Virus record (IMG/VR): IMGVR_UViG_3300037418_002332
From: a virus
Taxonomy: Duplodnaviria; Caudoviricetes
DNA: 64,000 bases
Direction: 5' to 3' (one strand)
Under the pieces are notes generated by a model. It was not told the origin of the DNA, searched no databases, and saw nothing but the letters and a program-made list of their open reading frames with translations. Shown here in pieces: positions 3,298-63,674 of this stretch (positions within the stretch are counted from its first letter, which is position 1; the number at the start of each line of letters is the position of its first letter). The position numbers were made by a program, and so were the translations under genes.

Positions 3298-4347
3298 ATG
3301 ACAGACGACTTTTTCTTAGATCTACTAAACGACAATGACATCGAAGTTGTAGAAGACATTCCTGAAACTGGATTTGTTGATACAGGTTCATATGCGTTGA
3401 ACGGATTGATCTCTGCATCAATTTATGGCGGCATTCCAAATAATCGTGCAATCATGTGGGCTGGTGCGCCATCAGCAGGTAAAACATACTTCACACTTTC
3501 ATGTATCAAAACATATTTGGACAAAGATCCAATGAACAATGTGATTTTCTTTGATACTGAATTCGCACTTGAAAAAGAAATGATTGCGAAACGAGGCATC
3601 GATCCTAAGCGTTTCAAAATCGTTGACGCTGAATCTCTTCAAGACTTCAGAACAAAATCAGTCAAATTCTTGGATGCTTTTGAAGCTGCAAAGAAAAAAC
3701 CAAATGTCATGTTGGCATTGGATTCACTGAGCAACTTGGCAACCAATAAAGAAATCGCCGACGCTGCGGCTGGTAATGACGTTCGCGATATGACCAAAGC
3801 ACAGGTCATTCGTGGTATTTTCAGAATCATCACCCGTAAACTCGGCAAAAATCAAATTCCACTTTTGATGACAAACCATATCTACAGTTCAATGGATATG
3901 TATTCACCAGTTGTCATTTCAGGTGGTCAAGGCGCATTGTACGCAGCGTCAACGGTCGTAACTTTGAACAAGTCTAAACTCAAAGAAGGTGCTGATGTCA
4001 TCGGTAATATCATCAGGGCAACCACTTACAAGTCTAGATATTCAAAAGAAAACCAAAAGGTTGAATTGAAGTTGGACTATGACACCGGTCTAGATCGTTA
4101 CTATGGTCTGTTACCACTTGCTGAAAAATACAATGTCATCAAGAAAGTTTCAACACGTTATGAACTTCCTGATGGCGCTAAAGTATGGGGCAAGGAAATC
4201 AATGAAAATCCTGAACAAGTTTTTACAAAGGATATTCTTGATAAGCTGGATAAGGTAGCAAAGTTGGAATTTGGACTTGGTGGTTCAACGGATGGTGAAG
4301 AATTCATCATCAATGAGGAAGTTGCCAAACAACAAGAGGCAGAATAA
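3298..4347 (+). CDS. uvsX: RecA-like recombinase UvsX
   Basis: DTGSYALN, Walker A GAPSAGKT, DTEFA, LDSLSNL, ISGG motifs; between gp43 and gp41. Confidence 0.95.
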   Translation: MTDDFFLDLLNDNDIEVVEDIPETGFVDTGSYALNGLISASIYGGIPNNRAIMWAGAPSAGKTYFTLSCIKTYLDKDPMNNVIFFDTEFALEKEMIAKRGIDPKRFKIVDAESLQDFRTKSVKFLDAFEAAKKKPNVMLALDSLSNLATNKEIADAAAGNDVRDMTKAQVIRGIFRIITRKLGKNQIPLLMTNHIYSSMDMYSPVVISGGQGALYAASTVVTLNKSKLKEGADVIGNIIRATTYKSRYSKENQKVELKLDYDTGLDRYYGLLPLAEKYNVIKKVSTRYELPDGAKVWGKEINENPEQVFTKDILDKLDKVAKLEFGLGGSTDGEEFIINEEVAKQQEAE

Positions 4348-5927: not shown

Positions 5928-6469
5928 AAACATATGCTGGTATTGGGTCAAGGGAAACACCAGAGGATGTTTGTTTGATCATGAAGAATTTGGCCACCAA
6001 GCTTGAAGCTTTTGGTTACACGCTTCGCAGTGGTGGTGCGGAAAAAGCTGATCAGGCATTCGCATCTGGCGTGACAAAGAAATCAAATATGCAAATCTTC
6101 CTCCCTTGGCGCGGCCATAATGCGATTGATTCGATTTACACCGAACCATCCGAGGAAGCTATGGAATTGGCGGAAGCTTATCATCCTGCTTGGAACAAGA
6201 TGGGTGAACGAGGCAAATTGCTTCAAGGTCGAAACAGCCATATCATCCTGGGTGAAAATCTCGATGATCCTGTTGATTTCGTGATCTGCTGGACCCAAAA
6301 TGGTGGAGTCATGGGCGGCACAGGCCAAGGGATGCGAATTGCCAATTCAAAGAAAATTCCAATTTATAATCTGCGTAATGAAGCAGACATTCAAAAACTG
6401 AGCGCATTCCTAGCAACTCTTACTGAACAAGCAGTCAAGGAAAAGGACGCCAAGAAAATTTGGGAATAA
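5924..6469 (+). CDS. SLOG/DprA-like Rossmann-fold protein
   Basis: YAGIGSRETP, LRSGGAEKAD, GGTGQGMRIA motifs. Confidence 0.7.
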   Translation: MKTYAGIGSRETPEDVCLIMKNLATKLEAFGYTLRSGGAEKADQAFASGVTKKSNMQIFLPWRGHNAIDSIYTEPSEEAMELAEAYHPAWNKMGERGKLLQGRNSHIILGENLDDPVDFVICWTQNGGVMGGTGQGMRIANSKKIPIYNLRNEADIQKLSAFLATLTEQAVKEKDAKKIWE

Positions 6470-7161
6470 AGTACATGCCAGTTTTGGGATACATTTCAGA
6501 CCTTCATCTTGAATTTAGGAAGGATATGGTCAAGGACGGAGTTTCATTTGATGATGTTGTAATTGATTATTTCAACAGCTTCACTGGAAAAATCGACTTT
6601 TTGATCATTGCAGGTGATATTCATTCGGATCAGAAAAAGCGTGAGAAATTTCTTTCACGTCTGACTGTACCTGTGAAATATGTCATGGGCAATCACGACT
6701 TTTTCAAACTGGAAGTGTATGACGATTTCTTTGATGAGGACGGAATCACCGGAGCAGGTCTCTGGACCAACTTCAATAACAATCCGTTGAATGAAATCAT
6801 TGCACGTGAACAGATTTGGGATTATCGTTGGATACCAAAATGGACCACTGAAAAATGCAAGGCACTGCATTTTGAGCAAATGCGAAAGATTATGGCCAGT
6901 CCATCTGAAATCGTAGTGACTCACTTTCCACCTTCATTCGGTTCAATCACTGATCGTTTTAAAGGTGATCCATTGAGCACCGCATATTTCTGTAACAATC
7001 TTGATTCTCAGATTTTAGGATCAAACAAAAAGTTGTGGATTCACGGTCACGTTCATTCGGATCACGATTATATGATCGGTGATTGTCGAGTGGTTTGTAA
7101 TGCGATGGGATATCCTAATGAGTTGCACAAAAGACAAGAGATAAAAATCATAGATATTTAA
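6460..7161 (+). CDS. Calcineurin-like metallophosphoesterase
   Basis: SDLHLE, AGDIH, GNHD, THFPP, WIHGHVH motifs. Confidence 0.9.
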   Translation: MGIKYMPVLGYISDLHLEFRKDMVKDGVSFDDVVIDYFNSFTGKIDFLIIAGDIHSDQKKREKFLSRLTVPVKYVMGNHDFFKLEVYDDFFDEDGITGAGLWTNFNNNPLNEIIAREQIWDYRWIPKWTTEKCKALHFEQMRKIMASPSEIVVTHFPPSFGSITDRFKGDPLSTAYFCNNLDSQILGSNKKLWIHGHVHSDHDYMIGDCRVVCNAMGYPNELHKRQEIKIIDI

Positions 7162-53331: not shown

Positions 53332-53568
53332 TTGGGAATGCTGGAATTCACTATTGCTCAATACGCATCAAATCTTTTCTATCAGTCGCAGTCAGTTTTT
53401 TATGTCGATCTGTTGAACCGTGAATTTGAAATCATCGGAATTCGGCCATGGGGTGCTGATTATGAGCTCACCATGATGAATGAATATGATGAGGTCGTTC
53501 ATCGCGTTCTTGGCGATCATGAAATGCTATTCGTTGATCTCGAACTGGAGACCGCAGATGATCTATGA
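53332..53568 (+). CDS. hypothetical protein
   Basis: 78-aa ORF after putative promoter. Confidence 0.5.
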   Translation: MGMLEFTIAQYASNLFYQSQSVFYVDLLNREFEIIGIRPWGADYELTMMNEYDEVVHRVLGDHEMLFVDLELETADDL

Positions 53569-54796
53569 AATCTTCGAACGACTTCTCGCTGATAACGGTC
53601 GCTTGGCCAAGGAAGCAGTGCTTCGCAGTGAAGTCAACAACGAAGTTTTGAAGCGAGTTTTCACGCTTGCTTTGAATCCCTACATTCGCTTTCATGTTCG
53701 CAAAATTCCTTACACATTTCTCGGACATGGAACAATCACGTTGGAACAGGCTATGGACGAACTGTCTAAGCTTTCCGGTCGTGAAATCACCGGCAACGCT
53801 GCCGTCGCATTTTTGGAAAATTTGTTCAATGAACTGACTGAAGACGACGCAAAGGTTCTTCAGAAAATCGTAGAAAAAGATTTGAAGTGCGGTGTTTCCA
53901 CAGCAACCGTCAACAAAATTTGGCCAAAGCTGATTCCCGAGTTTGAAATTCAGCTGGCACTTCCATATGAATCCAAGAAGCGTCCGGCACGTTTTGCTCT
54001 CGAACCAAAGATCGACGGCATGCGTGTTTTTGTAATGAACGAAGGCTCAGTCTTCTCTTTCATGACTCGTGGTGGTCGCGAACTTGAAACTCTCGATCAC
54101 ATGATTCCTGAAATCAACCGGCTGATGAATGATCGTACAGATTACTTCATCGACACGGAAGTTATCGCAGGCACTGGTGTTGAAGATACAACCAGTGCTG
54201 TGAAGCGCAAAGGCAAGGCCAAAGGCAATCCAAAGTTGGTTGTGTTTGATATTGGTACGATGGAAGAATTTCATACCAAAAAATCATTTAAGACCTATGA
54301 TGAACGCCGCGCTGAATTGGTAGAGTTGTTTTCGAAACATGAAGCCAAAGATTTGGTTTTGAATGATTCCATTCCGTGGGATGGCGAAGACGATCCAGAA
54401 AAATTCATCACAGACAAGTTCAACGAATGGCGCGCGCAGAAAATTGAGGGTGCTATCGTGAAGGATCGTGACTCACTTTATGAGTTCGACCGCACTGAAG
54501 CTTGGATGAAAGTCAAGCCATTAGATCATACGGATGTCGTGATCACTGGATATTATCCCGGCAAGAAAGGCACTCGTAACGAACATCGCCTTGGCGGTTT
54601 TACGTTTGAAATTGATGGTGTTGAAAGTCGTGTTGGTGGTGGCTTTAGTGATAAGCAGCGCGATGAGTTCTGGGCTATCAAAGACGAAATGATTGGAACT
54701 ACGATCGAAATTGAATTCATGGAACCAACCGCAAAGGGCGCAACTCGTCATTGCAACTTTATCATGGTTCGGTCATATAAGGGTGAACGGACATAA
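53558..54796 (+). CDS. gp30: ATP-dependent DNA ligase gp30
   Basis: KDLKCGVS, EPKIDGMR (KxDG), EGAIVK, WMKVK, VGGGFSD. Confidence 0.95.
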   Translation: MIYEIFERLLADNGRLAKEAVLRSEVNNEVLKRVFTLALNPYIRFHVRKIPYTFLGHGTITLEQAMDELSKLSGREITGNAAVAFLENLFNELTEDDAKVLQKIVEKDLKCGVSTATVNKIWPKLIPEFEIQLALPYESKKRPARFALEPKIDGMRVFVMNEGSVFSFMTRGGRELETLDHMIPEINRLMNDRTDYFIDTEVIAGTGVEDTTSAVKRKGKAKGNPKLVVFDIGTMEEFHTKKSFKTYDERRAELVELFSKHEAKDLVLNDSIPWDGEDDPEKFITDKFNEWRAQKIEGAIVKDRDSLYEFDRTEAWMKVKPLDHTDVVITGYYPGKKGTRNEHRLGGFTFEIDGVESRVGGGFSDKQRDEFWAIKDEMIGTTIEIEFMEPTAKGATRHCNFIMVRSYKGERT

Positions 54797-55566
54797 TGGG
54801 TGACGAAATAGAAGACGAGTTCGAGGATAAACTTCTAAATGTTTTGGACATTGAAGTTGATAACTGGTGGGAACCTGCTGGACTAACCAAAGGCAAACTC
54901 AATGGTTTGTATGGTACTGCTGGAACAGGCAAATCCACTCTAGTTTATCAACATATGATACAAGCATTGAAATCTGTGGCTGCTCAAGTTTCGGCAGTTA
55001 CGACCAACGGAACAACCGTTATGTATGGATACAACGACGAAGACATTCGTGATGAACCAAACGAAATTACATATGGTGATTTCGGTATTGGACATCTTCC
55101 GAAATACCAACGAACATTGATTCGTAGAATTTTCTCAAAGCTTGGTGGAACAGCAATTCCAAAAGATTTGAAAATTTTCTTGAACACCGTTGAAGAACAT
55201 GATTTGATTATGTCAATCGTAAATAACATGGTTGACGTATTGCCACAAAAATCTCTGTTCTTCAACTACGATATTGATATGAATAAAACGCTTATCGGTA
55301 AGAGATCAACGGGTTCCAGGGAACTTAATTTTCTTCACATTCCAACTAAACATATGGTTGATCTGACTGATAAGGCTGACTTTTTTAGCGATCATAATCT
55401 ATCCTTCTCCTCAGTGGTGAAGGCTCGAACAGAACCATGTGCGGAATATCCTTTTCCGATTATTCTAACAGTGATTCATAAAGAAAAATTGAATCGTATC
55501 AAGCCTTGGCTTCGATGGCTTGTCGAACAACGTTACGATCCGATAACGATTGTTTTGACAGACTAG
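54796..55566 (+). CDS. protein with RecA/DnaB-like Walker A fragment
   Basis: GLTKGKLNGLYGTAGTGKSTL; remainder unrecognised. Confidence 0.5.
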   Translation: MGDEIEDEFEDKLLNVLDIEVDNWWEPAGLTKGKLNGLYGTAGTGKSTLVYQHMIQALKSVAAQVSAVTTNGTTVMYGYNDEDIRDEPNEITYGDFGIGHLPKYQRTLIRRIFSKLGGTAIPKDLKIFLNTVEEHDLIMSIVNNMVDVLPQKSLFFNYDIDMNKTLIGKRSTGSRELNFLHIPTKHMVDLTDKADFFSDHNLSFSSVVKARTEPCAEYPFPIILTVIHKEKLNRIKPWLRWLVEQRYDPITIVLTD

Positions 55567-55653
55567 AAGAAAATGCTTTACGACAATCAAAAAACAATAT
55601 ATAAATGAATTGTAAGTTAGATAACAATCCTGGATTTACCAAAGGAGATTAAA

Positions 55654-55809
55654 ATGCAGGGTTCTGTTGCTGTTGTGAAGACGGTGAAGACCAAAATGCG
55701 TGATTATCGCGACAACGATAAGAAGCGCGATCGTGATTCATTCAAGAAGCACCGCAAGGGTCAGCTTCGTGATAAGAGGCGTTTCGACTTTGACGATGAC
55801 AAAGACTAA
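55654..55809 (+). CDS. 51-aa highly charged protein (not in ORF track)
   Basis: AAGGAG SD; MQGSVAVVKTVKTKMRDYRD... Confidence 0.55.
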   Translation: MQGSVAVVKTVKTKMRDYRDNDKKRDRDSFKKHRKGQLRDKRRFDFDDDKD

Positions 55810-55812
55810 TTA

Positions 55813-55890
55813 GCTCTCGTATCGGCACAGTTTCCTAAACTGTCGCACCGTAATGGACCGATGCGGGTTCGATTCCCGCCGAGAGCTCCA
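55813..55890 (+). ncRNA. tRNA-Arg(CCT)-like RNA lacking a D-arm
   Basis: acceptor gctctcg/cgagagc, anticodon arm acagt-ttCCTaa-actgt, T-arm gcggg-ttcgatt-cccgc, CCA. Confidence 0.7.
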
Positions 55891-55903
55891 ACGGGAGGCA
55901 ATA

Positions 55904-56314
55904 ATGGAAAAATTGTATCGACAAAACGAAAGCATCGTCGCAAAGATTGGCGCAGCATTGTTCAATTACATCAGCGTGTCTGACAAGATTCGCGCTGATT
56001 ATGCTAAGCTTGTTCATGATAAACTTTCCAATAAAAAGAAATTTCTTTTCTTCAAGGCTCACAAGTCTCTTCCTGAGCCATCTTCAATCACCCTTGATAT
56101 GCTGTTGAAAATTGCGGACTGTCCAATGCCACCGCACATTGATCGTTTGCGTCGTATTGGCATCACATTGCACAATTTGCATATCATGGCTCAAAAATCC
56201 ACAAGACTTCCCCAATTTTTGTTTTCAATTACGCAATTAGAAACGGAATTGATTGACAAATGGTCACAAAATACAATCAACAAAGAATCATCATTTTCTC
56301 CATACAATTGGTAG
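55904..56314 (+). CDS. hypothetical protein
   Basis: GGAGG SD, ATG 55904. Confidence 0.6.
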   Translation: MEKLYRQNESIVAKIGAALFNYISVSDKIRADYAKLVHDKLSNKKKFLFFKAHKSLPEPSSITLDMLLKIADCPMPPHIDRLRRIGITLHNLHIMAQKSTRLPQFLFSITQLETELIDKWSQNTINKESSFSPYNW

Positions 56315-58046: not shown

Positions 58047-58057
58047 GGAATTGATTG

Positions 58058-58681
58058 ATGAACGCACCAGTGAATCTTGATGAAATTCAACGTGAAACCT
58101 ATCGTGAAGATATTGCTGGACTGAATGTCCACAATCATCTCAAGGACAAGTCTGTTCCTGAGCTTCGCGACATTTCAATGTCCGATCGGTTCCCATTTGC
58201 AGTCATGGCTTTGTCTTTGACTGGTGATGGCAACGTTGGTGGCATTGTTCGTTCGGCTGTTCTTCACGGTGCTGAAAAGGTTTGGATTTACGGTCGTCGA
58301 AAGTTCGACAAGCGTCCAACCGTCGGTTCGTTGAATTACATCGATCATGAAATCATCGATGGATTTGAAGATAACAAGCCTGGAATTTTCGATGTTCAGA
58401 AGTTTATGACGATTATCGCTGAAAACGAATATTTTCCAGTATTTGTTGAACAAGGCGGAACTTCTCTTGAAGAATTCGATTGGAATGCATTGCCTGATAT
58501 GAAAATTCTATTGGTGTTGGGAAACGAAACCAACGGCATTCCAGAAGAATTTATGAAGGTGATGGAAGACCTTTCGGAGATCGTATCAATTCCTCAACGC
58601 GGAGTGATTCGTTCATTCAATGTTTCCAACGCAATGAATATTGTCACATGGGATATGAGAATGAAGAAAAAGTGGTTCTGA
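58058..58681 (+). CDS. SPOUT RNA methyltransferase (TrmH/SpoU family)
   Basis: GNVGGIVRSA, LVLGNETNGIP, SIPQRGVIRSFNVSNA. Confidence 0.92.
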   Translation: MNAPVNLDEIQRETYREDIAGLNVHNHLKDKSVPELRDISMSDRFPFAVMALSLTGDGNVGGIVRSAVLHGAEKVWIYGRRKFDKRPTVGSLNYIDHEIIDGFEDNKPGIFDVQKFMTIIAENEYFPVFVEQGGTSLEEFDWNALPDMKILLVLGNETNGIPEEFMKVMEDLSEIVSIPQRGVIRSFNVSNAMNIVTWDMRMKKKWF

Positions 58682-59131: not shown

Positions 59132-59208
59132 GCTTCCGTAGCTCAGTTGGTTAGAGCAGGGATCTCTAAAATCCTGTGTCGTGGGTTCGAGTCCCACCGG
59201 TCGCGCCA
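59132..59208 (+). tRNA. tRNA with CUA anticodon (amber suppressor-type)
   Basis: D-arm gctc-agttggtta-gagc; gggat-ctCTAaa-atcct; T-arm gtggg-ttcgagt-cccac; CCA; two acceptor mismatches. Confidence 0.8.
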
Positions 59209-59223
59209 TTTTTCATGAGGTAA

Positions 59224-59877
59224 GTGATGGATGATGAAGACAAATACGATGAAGCTCTTGAGGAAGCTGAAGATAAAAAGGCTCTGAAGCTTCTCAAACA
59301 AATTTGTAATTCGGAATTCAAATCATACAAAAAATATATTGCTGAAGACAAATATCATGACACCTTTGGTGCTGGTGATATTCTCCATTCTAAAAAGTGG
59401 ACACCTGAAGAAATGTGTAAGCAGTTCATTTGGGCTTACATGATTCGCGGTGCAATCCAAGATTGGGGATTGTTTGGTGAAGAAGCTGTTGATCAAAAGT
59501 TCGAAGACCTCTATTATCAAATTGCGGCAATGAATATTGGTACTGACGAATTCGATGATAAATATCGACCATTGATCATCGAAGTTGAAAATATCATTCG
59601 CAATCGTAACAGTGACAAACGATTAGATCGTTTATATCCTGGCGTTTTTAGGCGCAGTGAATATAATCGTCCAACATTGGTTTGGACTGTGTTGAGTTCT
59701 GACATTGGATTGAATTATGGTCCATTCTTTGTTGAAAAAGAAGAAGCCGAAACCTTTCAAAAAGAACATTTCAGTCATGAACTGTCAAAACATCCTCTAC
59801 AAAGAGTGTTGATCACGCCAGTAAAAGAAGAATGGTTAGAACAAAACCGAATTGTTGAAAACGAGGAAGATGACTAA
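59224..59877 (+). CDS. hypothetical protein
   Basis: 217-aa ORF. Confidence 0.6.
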   Translation: MMDDEDKYDEALEEAEDKKALKLLKQICNSEFKSYKKYIAEDKYHDTFGAGDILHSKKWTPEEMCKQFIWAYMIRGAIQDWGLFGEEAVDQKFEDLYYQIAAMNIGTDEFDDKYRPLIIEVENIIRNRNSDKRLDRLYPGVFRRSEYNRPTLVWTVLSSDIGLNYGPFFVEKEEAETFQKEHFSHELSKHPLQRVLITPVKEEWLEQNRIVENEEDD

Positions 59878-60598
59878 AACTGTAGCAATTTTATCGACTC
59901 TTTTATTTGTATGGATCACATTAACTGTTGGATTGGCAATAAGCAATCAACATCCTACTCTTGAAGACAATATCAATTCCACCGTTGTGATCGTTTCCGG
60001 CAACGGTAGTGGTTCCGGTGTTTTGATCAATCCCAATCAAGTGTTGACTGCGTTTCATGTGCCAATGGCTGACGCAAACAGTCCTGATTATGTTATCTTC
60101 AAAAATTCAGGTCGCGCAACAATCAAAACGAAAATCGTCGCATCAAGCTATGAACAAGATTTGATTGTGATGAATTTGGATAAACCAAACACAAAAGTGA
60201 AACCTGTCAATATCGATTGTGGATTGCCTGATGTTGGTGATGAAGTATATGCAGTTGGCGAGCCTGAAGGTTTTTGGTGGATGGTGAGATGGGGTCATGT
60301 TGTTGATCCTGAAAATTCAATCATTCGTGAAGGTGAATTCAGATTGCCTTCAGACTACATCAAGGAAGAATTTTTATTCACCATTGATTTGAACATGATG
60401 CACGGTAATTCGGGTGGTGGTATTTTCAATCAAGATACAGGTAATTTAATCGGAATTGCATCCCAAATGTGGTTGAAGCAATTTGCGGATAAGACTGGTG
60501 AAACGCAACAATTATACATGCAAATGGGCTTTCCCGTTCGCGGAAATGTGATTTGTAAATTTTTAGACGACAACAAAATTTCATATACAAAGGGTTGA
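59870..60598 (+). CDS. membrane-anchored trypsin-like serine protease
   Basis: N-terminal TM; GSG, LTAFHV, DLIV, HGNSGGG triad motifs. Confidence 0.88.
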   Translation: MTKTVAILSTLLFVWITLTVGLAISNQHPTLEDNINSTVVIVSGNGSGSGVLINPNQVLTAFHVPMADANSPDYVIFKNSGRATIKTKIVASSYEQDLIVMNLDKPNTKVKPVNIDCGLPDVGDEVYAVGEPEGFWWMVRWGHVVDPENSIIREGEFRLPSDYIKEEFLFTIDLNMMHGNSGGGIFNQDTGNLIGIASQMWLKQFADKTGETQQLYMQMGFPVRGNVICKFLDDNKISYTKG

Positions 60599-62458: not shown

Positions 62459-62541
62459 GTGCTCGTGGGCTTAGGGAAACGGCACACTCAGGGGACTTAA
62501 AATCCTTGCCTTTGTGGGTTCGAGTCCCACCGAGCATACCA
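62459..62541 (+). tRNA. tRNA-Leu(TAA)
   Basis: gtgctcg/cgagcat, loop ctTAAaa, T-arm, ACCA. Confidence 0.8.
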
Positions 62542-62861: not shown

Positions 62862-62944
62862 GGATCGGTGACCCGAGTGGCGAAGGGCGCGGGCTTTTAA
62901 TCCGCTATACAACACCGTGGGTTCGAGTCCCACCCGATTCACCA
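62862..62944 (+). tRNA. tRNA-Lys(TTT) with 11-nt variable region
   Basis: gcggg-ctTTTaa-tccgc; T-arm; ACCA. Confidence 0.8.
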
Positions 62945-62974
62945 AATTTTAAGAAGAATTTTCAAAGAAAGTTC

Positions 62975-63003
62975 TTTACTTTTTGAATCGTTGAAATTAT
63001 ACT
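62975..63003 (+). promoter_or_regulatory. sigma70-like early promoter
   Basis: TTTACT-N17-TATACT. Confidence 0.7.
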
Positions 63004-63091
63004 GAATGTCTTGAGTCGGTTGACTCCGTTCTTTGATAATTGAATACGATTTTCTCAAGCGGTCATTGACCGTTTTGGAAATTTGTATAAT

Positions 63092-63165
63092 GACCATATT
63101 GCCGTCAGGGAAGGCTGTGCGCTGTCTACGCATAAAGGCGGGTTCGAGTCCCGTTATGGTCGCCA
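63092..63165 (+). tRNA. tRNA-Asp(GTC)
   Basis: gaccata/tatggtc; loop ctGTCta; GCCA. Confidence 0.8.
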
Positions 63166-63221
63166 TATTGGATCAATCAGTAATTCGCAGTAGCAACTGT
63201 GTTTGGTCGGTCCTAATCCTT

Positions 63222-63311
63222 TGCGGGATTGAGAAGTCAGGTCTATCTCCCCGGTCTCATAAGCCGGTGCACCGAAAGTGCTCAGTGGTTCAAATCCACT
63301 TCCCGCAACCA
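63222..63311 (+). tRNA. tRNA-Met(CAT), fMet-like, with extra variable arm
   Basis: ccggt-ctCATaa-gccgg; T-loop ttcaaat; ACCA. Confidence 0.8.
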
Positions 63312-63346
63312 TTTCGATTGGAGTTATGAACCAATCAATGAAATAT

Positions 63347-63429
63347 TGGAGTGTGACTGAAAGGTAAAGTGCCCGGCTGTTAACCGGAGGCCCCATGTGG
63401 AGCAGGATCGTTACCTGCCACTCCAGCCA
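63347..63429 (+). tRNA. tRNA-Asn(GTT), atypical
   Basis: tggagtg/cactcca; loop ctGTTaa; T-loop atcgtta. Confidence 0.7.
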
Positions 63430-63441
63430 ATTCTATAATTT

Positions 63442-63499
63442 GGGCTCACGCTAGGACGCATCCCGGGAATAAGGGGTTCGAATCCCCATGAGTCCACCA
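63442..63499 (+). ncRNA. 58-nt tRNA-like RNA without anticodon loop
   Basis: gggctca/tgagtcc acceptor, gggg-ttcgaat-cccc T-arm, ACCA. Confidence 0.65.
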
Positions 63500-63515
63500 A
63501 TTTGAAGTGTTATAT

Positions 63516-63593
63516 TCCGGTGAGGCGAGCAAGGTGCACGCAGCTGACTGTTAATCAGATTTCAGGTAGGTTCGATTCCTATCTCCGGAGCCA
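63516..63593 (+). tRNA. tRNA-Asn(GTT)
   Basis: loop ctGTTaa; T-loop ttcgatt; GCCA. Confidence 0.8.
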
Positions 63594-63597
63594 ATTT

Positions 63598-63674
63598 ACT
63601 GCGATCTGCTAATGGACGAGGCGATCTGGTTCTCAGCCAGGGAAATGCGGGTTCGAGTCCCGTTCGCAGTACCA
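63598..63674 (+). tRNA. tRNA-Glu(CTC)
   Basis: actgcga/tcgcagt; tctgg-ttCTCag-ccagg; ACCA. Confidence 0.82.

What the first reader, a model, noticed from the sequence alone, without database searches (positions are those of the whole stretch)
55813..55890. D-armless tRNA-Arg(CCU)-like RNA with rearranged topology
Acceptor, anticodon and T arms and CCA are perfect, but only 7 nt link the acceptor to the anticodon stem. A 19-nt segment containing a D-loop-like TAATGGA lies 3' of the anticodon arm, and ATCGG (55821-25) pairs with CCGAT (55858-62), giving a non-cloverleaf fold. It reads the rare AGG codon if functional, or could be a nuclease-resistant or decoy tRNA.
Basis: seen in the sequence. 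Interest (0 to 1): 0.7.

Follow-up and report, generated by a model that had tools for sequence, protein, structure and literature searches.

The report
Phage arginine tRNA with permuted D-arm
This is a real gene of a soil phage for an arginine tRNA (anticodon CCU) whose D-arm pieces lie in a different order from the textbook cloverleaf; it belongs to a large phage family that tRNA finders mostly miss and that I found in no paper.

Summary
It is not a one-off. Pattern scans and a covariance model recovered about 130 relatives in phage contigs, named phages (Stenotrophomonas SOVA965, Streptomyces Mildred21, Microbacterium A3Wally and others) and a few tRNA arrays in bacterial genomes.

Nearly all carry arginine anticodons, and most sit within about 60 nt of an ordinary tRNA. 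ARAGORN overlaps only 2 of 130.

A different short helix covaries strongly. It joins linker bases 4-6 (CGG, 55823-25) to the three bases just 5' of U-AAUGGA (CCG, 55848-50).

Read in standard numbering, the 5' linker is U8-A9 + 22-25 + 26, and the 3' linker is a spacer + 10-13 + a D-loop (A14 A15 G18 G19 A20) + A-U48. So segment 10-21 has moved behind the anticodon arm. The ArgRS determinants A20 and C35 are kept.

Most likely this is a working tRNA-Arg that reads AGG. Expression and charging are untested. Earlier agents of this scan found the same family on other DNA. I found it described in none of ten literature searches.

The parts
55813..55819 (+). acceptor stem, 5' strand (GCUCUCG), pairs with 55880-55886
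   Evidence: All 7 pairs covary in 96 relatives, 98.4% of cells paired.
55820..55821 (+). U8 A9, invariant in the family
   Evidence: Invariant columns T8 and A9 in alignment A1.
55822..55826 (+). U + CGG + C. This is the equivalent of canonical positions 22, 23-25 (3' strand of the D stem) and 26. CGG pairs with CCG at 55848-50.
   Evidence: Columns 11-45 and 13-44 pair in 96/96 sequences, with 5 and 4 pair types. Column 14-43 pairs in 60/96. Anchor-based count: 269/306 cells paired against 146 when shuffled. These pairs rank in the top 19 of a structure-blind mutual-information scan.
55827..55843 (+). anticodon arm: stem ACAGU/ACUGU, loop UUCCUAA, anticodon CCU at 55834-55836 (reads AGG)
   Evidence: The stem covaries, 94% of cells paired. 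U33, C35 and A37 are invariant.
55844..55847 (+). spacer CGCA between the anticodon stem and the relocated D-stem strand (position 44/45-like); 3-10 nt in relatives
   Evidence: Spacer lengths. Column 15 (position 26) against column 33 (position 44) gives mostly A.A, G.A, C.A, C.U and U.U combinations.
55848..55857 (+). CCG-U-AAUGGA, the equivalent of canonical 10-12, U13, A14 A15 U G18 G19 A20. This is the relocated 5' D-stem strand plus D loop.
   Evidence: U-AAUGG is invariant and A20 is kept in at least 90%. Canonical phage tRNA-Arg genes in the same loci read NNNY-AAUGGAUA at positions 10-21.
55858..55862 (+). CCG + A + U: a variable linker, then an invariant A-U just before the T stem (A21-like and U48-like)
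   Evidence: The last two bases are 'AT' in 102/102 members. The linker is 1-7 nt and its sequence is not conserved.
55863..55879 (+). T arm: GCGGG UUCGAUU CCCGC
   Evidence: 99.6% of cells paired. T-loop consensus is TTCRANY.
55880..55890 (+). acceptor stem 3' strand CGAGAGC, discriminator U73, encoded CCA
   Evidence: CCA is encoded in 64/102 members. The discriminator is U, A or G, never C.

Best explanation
55813-55890 encodes a working elongator tRNA-Arg(CCU) of a soil phage. It is a member of a large phage-borne tRNA family in which canonical segment 10-21 (the 5' strand of the D stem plus the D loop) lies after the anticodon arm instead of before it. Shown: the secondary structure is a three-way junction. 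The acceptor stem closes (i) a composite arm made of the 3-bp helix CGG:CCG stacked through a 1 x 4 internal loop on the anticodon stem, and (ii) the T arm. Inferred: the single-stranded U-AAUGGA...A-U that leaves the short helix plays the part of the D loop. G18 and G19 would dock on the T loop to make the elbow, A14 and A15 would pair with U8 and U48, and A20 would be offered to arginyl-tRNA synthetase together with C35 and U36. The molecule would then be processed from the polycistronic transcript, charged by the host ArgRS and used to read AGG during infection. Shown here: the arms, the covarying relocated helix, the conserved identity and tertiary-contact nucleotides, the restriction to Arg anticodons, and the position of relatives inside tRNA arrays. 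Inferred only: the L-shaped 3D fold, processing, charging and decoding.
For: (1) The family is real. BLAST found it in named phages of Stenotrophomonas, Rhizobium, Limnohabitans, Streptomyces and Microbacterium. The family model scores members at 50-87 bits and the window copy at 84.7 bits.
(2) Covariation supports all three classical arms and the relocated helix. Overall 95.9% of cells pair, against 59.7% when shuffled and at most 47% when slid. Pairs 11-45 and 13-44 are paired in 96/96 with 4-5 pair types. An anchor-based, alignment-free count gives 269/306 paired against 146 +/- 9. Structure-blind mutual information ranks these pairs among the top 19.
(3) Of 130 members, 126 have Arg anticodons (UCU, CCU, UCG, ACG, GCG, CCG), and C35 is invariant.
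(4) The bacterial ArgRS determinants listed by Giege & Eriani 2023 (PMC9976931: A20, C35, U/G36, A/G/U73) are all present. The four members that switched to Ile/Met-type anticodons (GAU, UAU, CAU) have U in place of A20, and A73. This fits the Ile determinants U20 and A73 in the same table.
(5) All 18 ACG members of the first set carry the loop CUACGAA.
(6) Members lie a median of 61 nt from a canonical tRNA. Their anticodons do not overlap those of canonical tRNA-Arg genes in the same locus in 38/48 loci, against 28.3 expected (P about 0.0004). So they fill otherwise empty Arg slots.
(7) The 3' element NNN-U-AAUGGA is the same motif as positions 10-20 of canonical phage tRNA-Arg genes.
(8) U8, A9, G18-G19, the A-U before the T stem and the T-loop consensus are invariant or nearly so.
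Against: There is no expression, processing, charging or decoding data for this or any member. The relocated helix is only 3 bp, and only 2 bp plus a mismatch in three subfamilies. RNAalifold does not call it. AGG is rare in the window's own genes: 41 codons, 5% of Arg codons. Simple codon supply is therefore a weak motive here. The gene is wedged between two ORFs, 3 nt after a stop codon and 13 nt before a start codon, so excising it would cut the mRNA. The 3D equivalence to the L shape is argued from canonical tRNA geometry (own knowledge) and was not modelled.
Confidence: 0.8

Rival explanations
1. The RNA folds. ATCGG (55821-25) pairs with CCGAT (55858-62) and encloses both the anticodon arm and the TAATGGA segment, so that helix defines the non-cloverleaf fold.
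For: The five pairs exist in this copy. The single-sequence MFE uses AUCG:CGAU. Adding the helix lowers the energy from -22.1 to -24.9 kcal/mol.
Against: In 96 relatives only 54% of its cells pair. Columns 13-59 and 14-58 are unpaired in 70 and 59 sequences. All five pairs can form in 2 of 102 members. In 86 relatives the helix costs a median of +4.7 kcal/mol and is favourable in 3%. It competes for the same CGG that covaries perfectly with CCG.
Confidence: 0.05
2. It is a tRNA whose rewired core exists mainly to escape something that recognises ordinary tRNA-Arg or its gene. Candidates are a host tRNA-cleaving defence nuclease, a phage-made nuclease that depletes host tRNA, or a homing endonuclease that cuts canonical tRNA-Arg genes. 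A related idea is a decoy that soaks up such an enzyme without being used in translation.
For: The scaffold is tied to one amino acid across all its anticodons rather than to one rare codon. AGG supply looks unimportant in this phage. HNH or GIY-YIG endonuclease genes lie directly upstream in SOVA965, Mildred21, A3Wally and one metagenomic member. The window carries other translation-related genes nearby, for example a SpoU methylase.
Against: No nuclease or defence partner was identified. Endonuclease genes flank only 4 of 35 ORF-flanked members, out of 132 in all, and none flanks the window copy. Known anticodon nucleases read the anticodon loop (own knowledge), and that loop is canonical here. 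A pure decoy would not need the ArgRS determinants, nor the complementarity with canonical Arg anticodons.
Confidence: 0.12
3. It is a decayed or non-functional tRNA remnant, or merely a tRNA-like processing signal that marks an RNase P / RNase Z cut site between two ORFs.
For: Low Rfam score (34.8 bits). ARAGORN misses it. It sits tightly between two ORFs.
Against: About 130 relatives keep every arm through compensatory changes. They keep an anticodon loop restricted to Arg and conserved D-loop and T-loop contacts. A mere processing signal needs none of these, and a pseudogene would not keep them.
Confidence: 0.03
4. The gene order is corrected at the RNA level, by cutting and religation as in the circularly permuted tRNA genes of Cyanidioschyzon merolae, to give a canonical cloverleaf tRNA.
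For: Permuted tRNA genes that are repaired by processing exist in nature (PMC3978253, listed). Some carrier phages encode an RNA ligase near their tRNA array (A3Wally).
Against: Here the acceptor 5' and 3' strands are already in normal order. Restoring the canonical order would mean moving an internal segment, which takes two cuts and two ligations. No bulge-helix-bulge motif or conserved extra helix was seen in the alignment. The covarying CGG:CCG helix and the fixed linker lengths argue that the RNA works as transcribed.
Confidence: 0.02

Closest known systems
Canonical class I bacterial and phage tRNA-Arg (Rfam RF00005), e.g. the ordinary tRNA-Arg genes in the same phage tRNA arrays
   Same: 7-bp acceptor stem, 5-bp anticodon stem with a 7-nt loop (U33, C35, A37), 5-bp T stem with a TTCRANY loop, and encoded CCA. 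U8, the A14-A15-G18-G19-A20 motif and U48 are present. Overall length is 75 nt + CCA. The ArgRS determinants are present. The gene scores above the RF00005 gathering threshold.
   Different: The order of parts differs. Positions 10-21 follow the anticodon arm instead of preceding it. The D stem is therefore formed by two distant strands and encloses the anticodon arm, the junction is three-way rather than four-way, and there is no D hairpin and no ordinary variable loop.
D-arm-lacking mitochondrial tRNAs (e.g. metazoan mt tRNA-Ser(AGY), nematode and mite mt tRNAs)
   Same: No D hairpin, a three-way junction, and an extended anticodon-side helix (own knowledge; reviews PMC4394434 and PMC2797822 listed).
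   Different: Those are shortened molecules, about 54-65 nt, with a short replacement loop and usually without the G18-G19/T-loop contacts. This family has full length, keeps an intact D-loop motif and a canonical T loop, and occurs in phages of bacteria.
Circularly permuted tRNA genes of Cyanidioschyzon merolae and other algae (PMC3978253)
   Same: The parts of a tRNA are encoded in a non-standard order.
   Different: There the whole gene is circularly permuted, with the 3' half before the 5' half, and processing restores a canonical mature tRNA. Here the termini are normal, only an internal segment is transposed, and the RNA appears to function in the permuted order.
Allo-tRNAs with 8/4 or 9/3 acceptor/T configurations (Mukai et al. 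2017, PMC5389517)
   Same: Natural, metagenome-derived tRNAs that depart from the standard cloverleaf and are missed by standard annotation.
   Different: Allo-tRNAs change helix lengths and carry long variable arms but keep the normal order of arms. This family keeps the 7/5 configuration and changes the connectivity of the D domain.

Membership tests
tRNA (Rfam RF00005) | Score at or above the curated gathering threshold of the covariance model | tested here: met
   34.8 bits against 29, full-length match 1-71. The match is obtained only by deleting the D arm and inserting 16 nt in the variable region.
tRNA (Rfam RF00005) | Four-arm cloverleaf with a D hairpin between position 9 and the anticodon arm | tested here: not met
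   Only 7 nt lie between the acceptor and anticodon stems. ARAGORN does not call it. No D hairpin is present in any of 96 relatives.
tRNA (functional elongator) | Stable processed RNA that is aminoacylated and used on the ribosome | not testable with these tools
   This needs tRNA-seq, Northern blots and charging assays.
Bacterial-type tRNA-Arg | ArgRS identity set: A20 in the D loop, C35, U/G36, A/G/U73 (Giege & Eriani 2023, PMC9976931) | tested here: met
   The window copy has GGA (A20 at 55857), C35 at 55835, U36 at 55836 and U73 at 55887. C35 is invariant and A20 is kept in at least 90% of the family. Whether A20 sits where ArgRS can reach it is inferred. The identity set is quoted.
Permuted-D-domain phage tRNA family (defined here, model R1) | U8-A9-N-[3 nt]-N before the anticodon arm. 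The complementary 3 nt, followed by U-AAYGGA, lie after it. An A-U precedes the T stem. | tested here: met
   84.7 bits, E 2.6e-20 on model R1. CGG 55823-25 pairs with CCG 55848-50. The window sequence was part of the seed alignment, so its high score is partly by construction. Relatives found independently by pattern scans score 50-87 bits.
D-arm-lacking mitochondrial-type tRNA | Short D-replacement loop, reduced length, loss of the D-loop/T-loop contact nucleotides | tested here: not met
   Length is 75 nt + CCA. The AAUGGA motif with G18-G19 is conserved and the T loop is canonical.
Circularly permuted tRNA gene (C. merolae type) | 3' half encoded upstream of the 5' half, with acceptor termini joined by an intervening sequence | tested here: not met
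   The acceptor 5' strand (55813-19) precedes the 3' strand (55880-86) and they pair directly.
Class II tRNA (long variable arm) | The long variable region forms its own covarying stem-loop, alongside a normal D arm | tested here: not met
   There is no D arm. The 19-nt region shows no conserved internal hairpin in RNAalifold or mutual-information analysis.

The most novel reading that the evidence does not exclude
Phages carry a second, natural solution to the tRNA fold. It is a three-way-junction tRNA whose D domain is assembled from strands on either side of the anticodon arm, and it is fully active with ArgRS and the ribosome. On this reading the rewiring is selected because it makes the tRNA, or its gene, invisible to enzymes that attack ordinary tRNA-Arg: host tRNA-directed defence nucleases, phage-made host-tRNA depletion, or tRNA-gene-directed homing endonucleases. 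These genes would then be a counter-defence scaffold and not just a structural curiosity.
Probability: 0.15. Interest if true: 0.9.

Novelty: new variant of a known kind. Interest (0 to 1): 0.75.

Why it matters
The cloverleaf order of arms is treated as near-universal outside organelles. A large family of full-length tRNAs that keeps every contact nucleotide but threads the chain through the D domain in another order would show that the L-shape tolerates a change of connectivity. It would give tRNA engineers a natural non-cloverleaf scaffold that host enzymes may treat differently. It also has a practical side. ARAGORN overlaps only 2 of 130 members, and the named phage records leave the gene unannotated or mislabel it (Mildred21 calls it 'tRNA-Phe(gaa)'). 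Arginine decoding capacity of many phages is therefore under-counted in studies of phage tRNA content and codon usage.

Tried and rejected
- Megablast of 2.5 kb around the gene against GenBank phages found no match, so no close relative of this phage is available.
- No whole genome is held for the window. Whether the phage also has canonical tRNA-Arg genes beyond the window is unknown.
- An exact 28-nt scan of IMG/VR with the T-arm and acceptor end gave 0 hits.
- Sequencing runs: no RNA holder is listed, only soil and rhizosphere DNA runs. Contigs from four of these runs are identical over 55500-56200 wherever they cover it, so there is no strain variation to read.
- The promoter and terminator scan around the gene found nothing beyond chance.
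- RNAalifold on 96 sequences predicts only the three classical arms.
- The homing-endonuclease link was a lead from an earlier scan note and from three named phages. Only 4 of 35 ORF-flanked members have an HNH or GIY-YIG gene upstream, and the window copy has none. I rejected it as a general feature.
- Codon supply: AGG is only 5% of Arg codons in the window, so this is not a convincing driver here.
- The genome-contig scan gave 48 pattern hits, but only 15 loci hold true members, all in dense tRNA arrays or on small MAG contigs. I saw no case of the family serving as a cell's own core tRNA-Arg set.
- Ten literature searches returned no paper describing this architecture. The library lacks most subscription journals, so absence is not proof.
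- Rfam in E-value mode gave only weak matches besides RF00005: Plastid-ycf2 on the antisense strand, mascRNA and permuted tmRNA, all far below their gathering scores.

Full report
**Observation.**
At 55813-55890 (+) the window reads GCTCTCG | TATCGGC | ACAGT TTCCTAA ACTGT | CGCACCGTAATGGACCGAT | GCGGG TTCGATT CCCGC | CGAGAGC | T | CCA.
- perfect 7-bp acceptor, 5-bp anticodon and 5-bp T stems;
- anticodon CCU and an encoded CCA;
- a 7-nt 5' linker and a 19-nt 3' linker with TAATGGA;
- the complementarity ATCGG/CCGAT.

ARAGORN does not call the element. The Rfam tRNA model does, at 34.8 bits against a gathering score of 29, but only by deleting the D arm and inserting 16 nt in the variable region. 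The gene lies in a 94-nt gap between two + strand ORFs. It starts 3 nt after the stop codon of a 51-aa ORF (55654-55809) and ends 13 nt before the ATG at 55904, which follows a GGGAGG ribosome-binding site.

**Source.**
The window is a large phage from soil or rhizosphere metagenomes. Its GC content is about 39%. It encodes ribonucleotide reductase, DNA ligase and a SpoU methylase, and has a tRNA array at its right end.

**It is a family.**
- A distant BLAST hit in Stenotrophomonas phage SOVA965 showed an unannotated relative. It has the same linkers, a UCU anticodon and compensatory changes in the acceptor and anticodon stems.
- BLAST with other members found Rhizobium phage RHph_I1_18 and Limnohabitans phage DC31. 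It also found six Streptomyces phages (Mildred21, Braelyn, Persimmon, WhereRU, Navo, TunaTartare), Microbacterium phages including A3Wally and Zooman, and a 462-kb uncultured phage.
- I aligned 96 distinct members (A1) and built covariance model R1. The window copy scores 84.7 bits (E 2.6e-20) and is the only copy in the window.
- Over 100 loci R1 found 118 hits. These include members with D-loop variants (AACGGA, AAUUGGA, AACUGGA, AACCGGA) that my patterns could not have selected.
- In one genome per species of 185,579 species, only 15 loci hold true members. They sit in dense tRNA arrays, for example in Rhizobium rosettiformans, Pseudaminobacter soli, Hoeflea and an Armatimonadota MAG.

**Which extra helix is real.**
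- only 54% of its cells pair, and its two G pairs are unpaired in 70 and 59 of 96 sequences;
- all five pairs can form in 2 of 102 members;
- in 86 relatives it costs a median of +4.7 kcal/mol.

A different, shorter helix covaries. It joins linker bases 4-6 (CGG, 55823-25) to the three bases immediately 5' of U-AAUGGA (CCG, 55848-50).
- Observed combinations include CGG:CCG, CAC:GUG, CAG:CUG, CUC:GAG, CGC:GCG, ACC:GGU, GGC:GCC, GCC:GGC, CGA:UCG, CUG:CAG and CCG:CGG.
- An anchor-based count gives 269 of 306 cells paired, against 146 +/- 9 after shuffling and 76-118 after sliding.
- On the MAFFT alignment, two of the three pairs are paired in 96/96 sequences with 4-5 pair types. The third pairs in 60/96.
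- A structure-blind mutual-information scan puts these three pairs within the top 19. Every other top pair but one belongs to the three classical arms.
- RNAalifold does not call so short a helix.
The argument for the family helix therefore rests on comparative evidence.

**Reading the linkers in standard numbering.**
Canonical phage tRNA-Arg genes from the same loci read U8 A9 | NNNY | AAUGGAUA | .... The 3' linker here has the same motif: three pairing bases, an invariant U, then AAUGGA.
- 5' linker = U8, A9, position 22 (variable, facing U13), 23-25 (CGG), position 26.
- 3' linker = a 3-10-nt spacer (44/45-like), 10-12 (CCG), U13, A14 A15 U G18 G19 A20, a 1-7-nt variable stretch, then an invariant A-U (A21-like and U48-like) abutting the T stem.

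In other words, segment 10-21 has changed places with segment 22-45. In the canonical fold (own knowledge), position 45 lies against pair 10-25, A21 lies in the layer next to pair 15-48, and U8 stacks next to pair 13-22. The three new chain connections (9 to 22, 45 to 10, 21 to 48) therefore join nucleotides that are already neighbours in space. That makes an ordinary L shape plausible. This is inference; no 3D model was made.

**Evidence that it is a working tRNA-Arg.**
- Of 130 members, 126 have Arg anticodons (UCU, CCU, UCG, ACG, GCG, CCG). U33, C35 and A37 are invariant.
- The bacterial ArgRS determinants A20, C35, U/G36 and A/G/U73 (Giege & Eriani 2023, PMC9976931) are all kept.
- Four members have Ile- or Met-type anticodons (GAU, UAU, UAU, CAU). 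They carry GGU instead of GGA, and A73. This matches the Ile determinants U20 and A73 in the same table, so identity nucleotides switch together with the anticodon.
- All 18 ACG members of the first set have the loop CUACGAA.
- Members lie a median of 61 nt from a canonical tRNA.
- In 48 loci that also hold canonical tRNA-Arg genes, the two anticodon sets are disjoint in 38, against 28.3 expected (P about 0.0004). The permuted genes fill Arg slots that the array otherwise lacks.

**Weak points.**
- There are no RNA data.
- AGG is only 5% of Arg codons in the window, so why this phage needs a CCU tRNA is unclear.
- The helix is short, and it is 2 bp plus a mismatch in three subfamilies.

**Rivals.**
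- A decayed tRNA or a bare processing signal is excluded by the family-wide conservation.
- RNA-level repair to canonical order, as in the permuted genes of C. merolae (PMC3978253), would need an internal transposition. No signal for it is seen.
- The counter-defence or decoy reading stays open but unsupported. Homing-endonuclease genes sit directly upstream in SOVA965, Mildred21 and A3Wally. That holds for only 4 of 35 ORF-flanked members and not for the window copy.

**Novelty.**
- Rfam 15 has no separate family for it.
- ARAGORN overlaps 2 of 130 members.
- GenBank records leave it unannotated, or mislabel it: Mildred21 calls it 'tRNA-Phe(gaa)' although the loop CUUCGAA gives UCG.
- Ten full-text searches found no description.
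- Earlier agents of this scan reported the same family on other genomes and also found no paper. Their notes are not independent evidence, but every claim I reuse was re-derived here.

I class it as a new variant of a known kind. It is a tRNA, but with a connectivity of the D domain that I have not found described.

Noticed in passing
window 59132-59208 (+): A canonical-looking tRNA with anticodon CUA, an amber suppressor. ARAGORN labels it 'Pyl'; Rfam tRNA scores 58 bits. TAG ends only 7 of 77 long ORFs in the window, against 37 TAA and 33 TGA. Possible TAG read-through or recoding in this phage.
   Followed up: no
window 62459-62541 (+): A further tRNA-shaped element called by neither ARAGORN nor Rfam. 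It has acceptor stem GUGCUCG/CGAGCAU, T arm GUGGG-UUCGAGU-CCCAC, A73 and CCA, and a possible anticodon loop CUUAAAA (UAA). Its D region does not fit the cloverleaf or the permuted family (19.5 bits on R1).
   Followed up: partly
window 62862-63674 (+): tRNA array: Lys UUU, Asp GUC, a 90-nt 'Met' call by ARAGORN only, Asn GUU twice, Glu CUC. Rfam scores are modest (34-45 bits), and the Lys and one Asn gene have unusually long variable regions (about 12-14 nt). The array runs up to the end of the window.
   Followed up: partly
window 58055-58681 (+): SpoU-family RNA 2'-O-methyltransferase gene (Pfam PF00588, E 1.7e-19), 2 kb downstream of the permuted tRNA. A trypsin-like peptidase lies at 59852-60598 and an ATP-dependent DNA ligase at 53480-54796.
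   Followed up: partly
L135:9723-9800, L135:10358-10448, L119:2050-2130, L129:2038-2113: Permuted-D-domain tRNAs with non-Arg anticodons (GAU, UAU, UAU, CAU). They carry GGU instead of GGA in the D-loop motif, and A73. The scaffold has spread to Ile or Met identity with matching identity changes.
   Followed up: partly
L184:1194-1269 (Streptomyces phage Mildred21, MF155946.1 91367-91442): This family member is annotated 'tRNA-Phe(gaa)'. Its anticodon loop CUUCGAA gives UCG (Arg), so the label looks like a misread. Sister phages Braelyn, Persimmon, WhereRU and Navo leave it unannotated.
   Followed up: yes
L001:1967-2503, L184:758-1192, L185:825-1187: HNH homing-endonuclease genes end 1-6 nt before the permuted tRNA in SOVA965, Mildred21 and A3Wally. 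Across the family this is rare: 4 of 35 upstream ORFs.
   Followed up: partly
L199 (Armatimonadota MAG, 1.36-Mb contig) 1860-1936, 3397-3475, 6394-6470: Three permuted tRNA-Arg genes (UCG, GCG, CCU) lie within 5 kb on a long bacterial contig, next to canonical tRNA-Arg(GCG) and tRNA-Arg(CCG). This may be a prophage or a mobile tRNA array.
   Followed up: no
window 55777-55779: The 51-aa, highly charged ORF just upstream of the tRNA-Arg(CCU) gene itself contains an AGG codon. This is probably coincidence.
   Followed up: no
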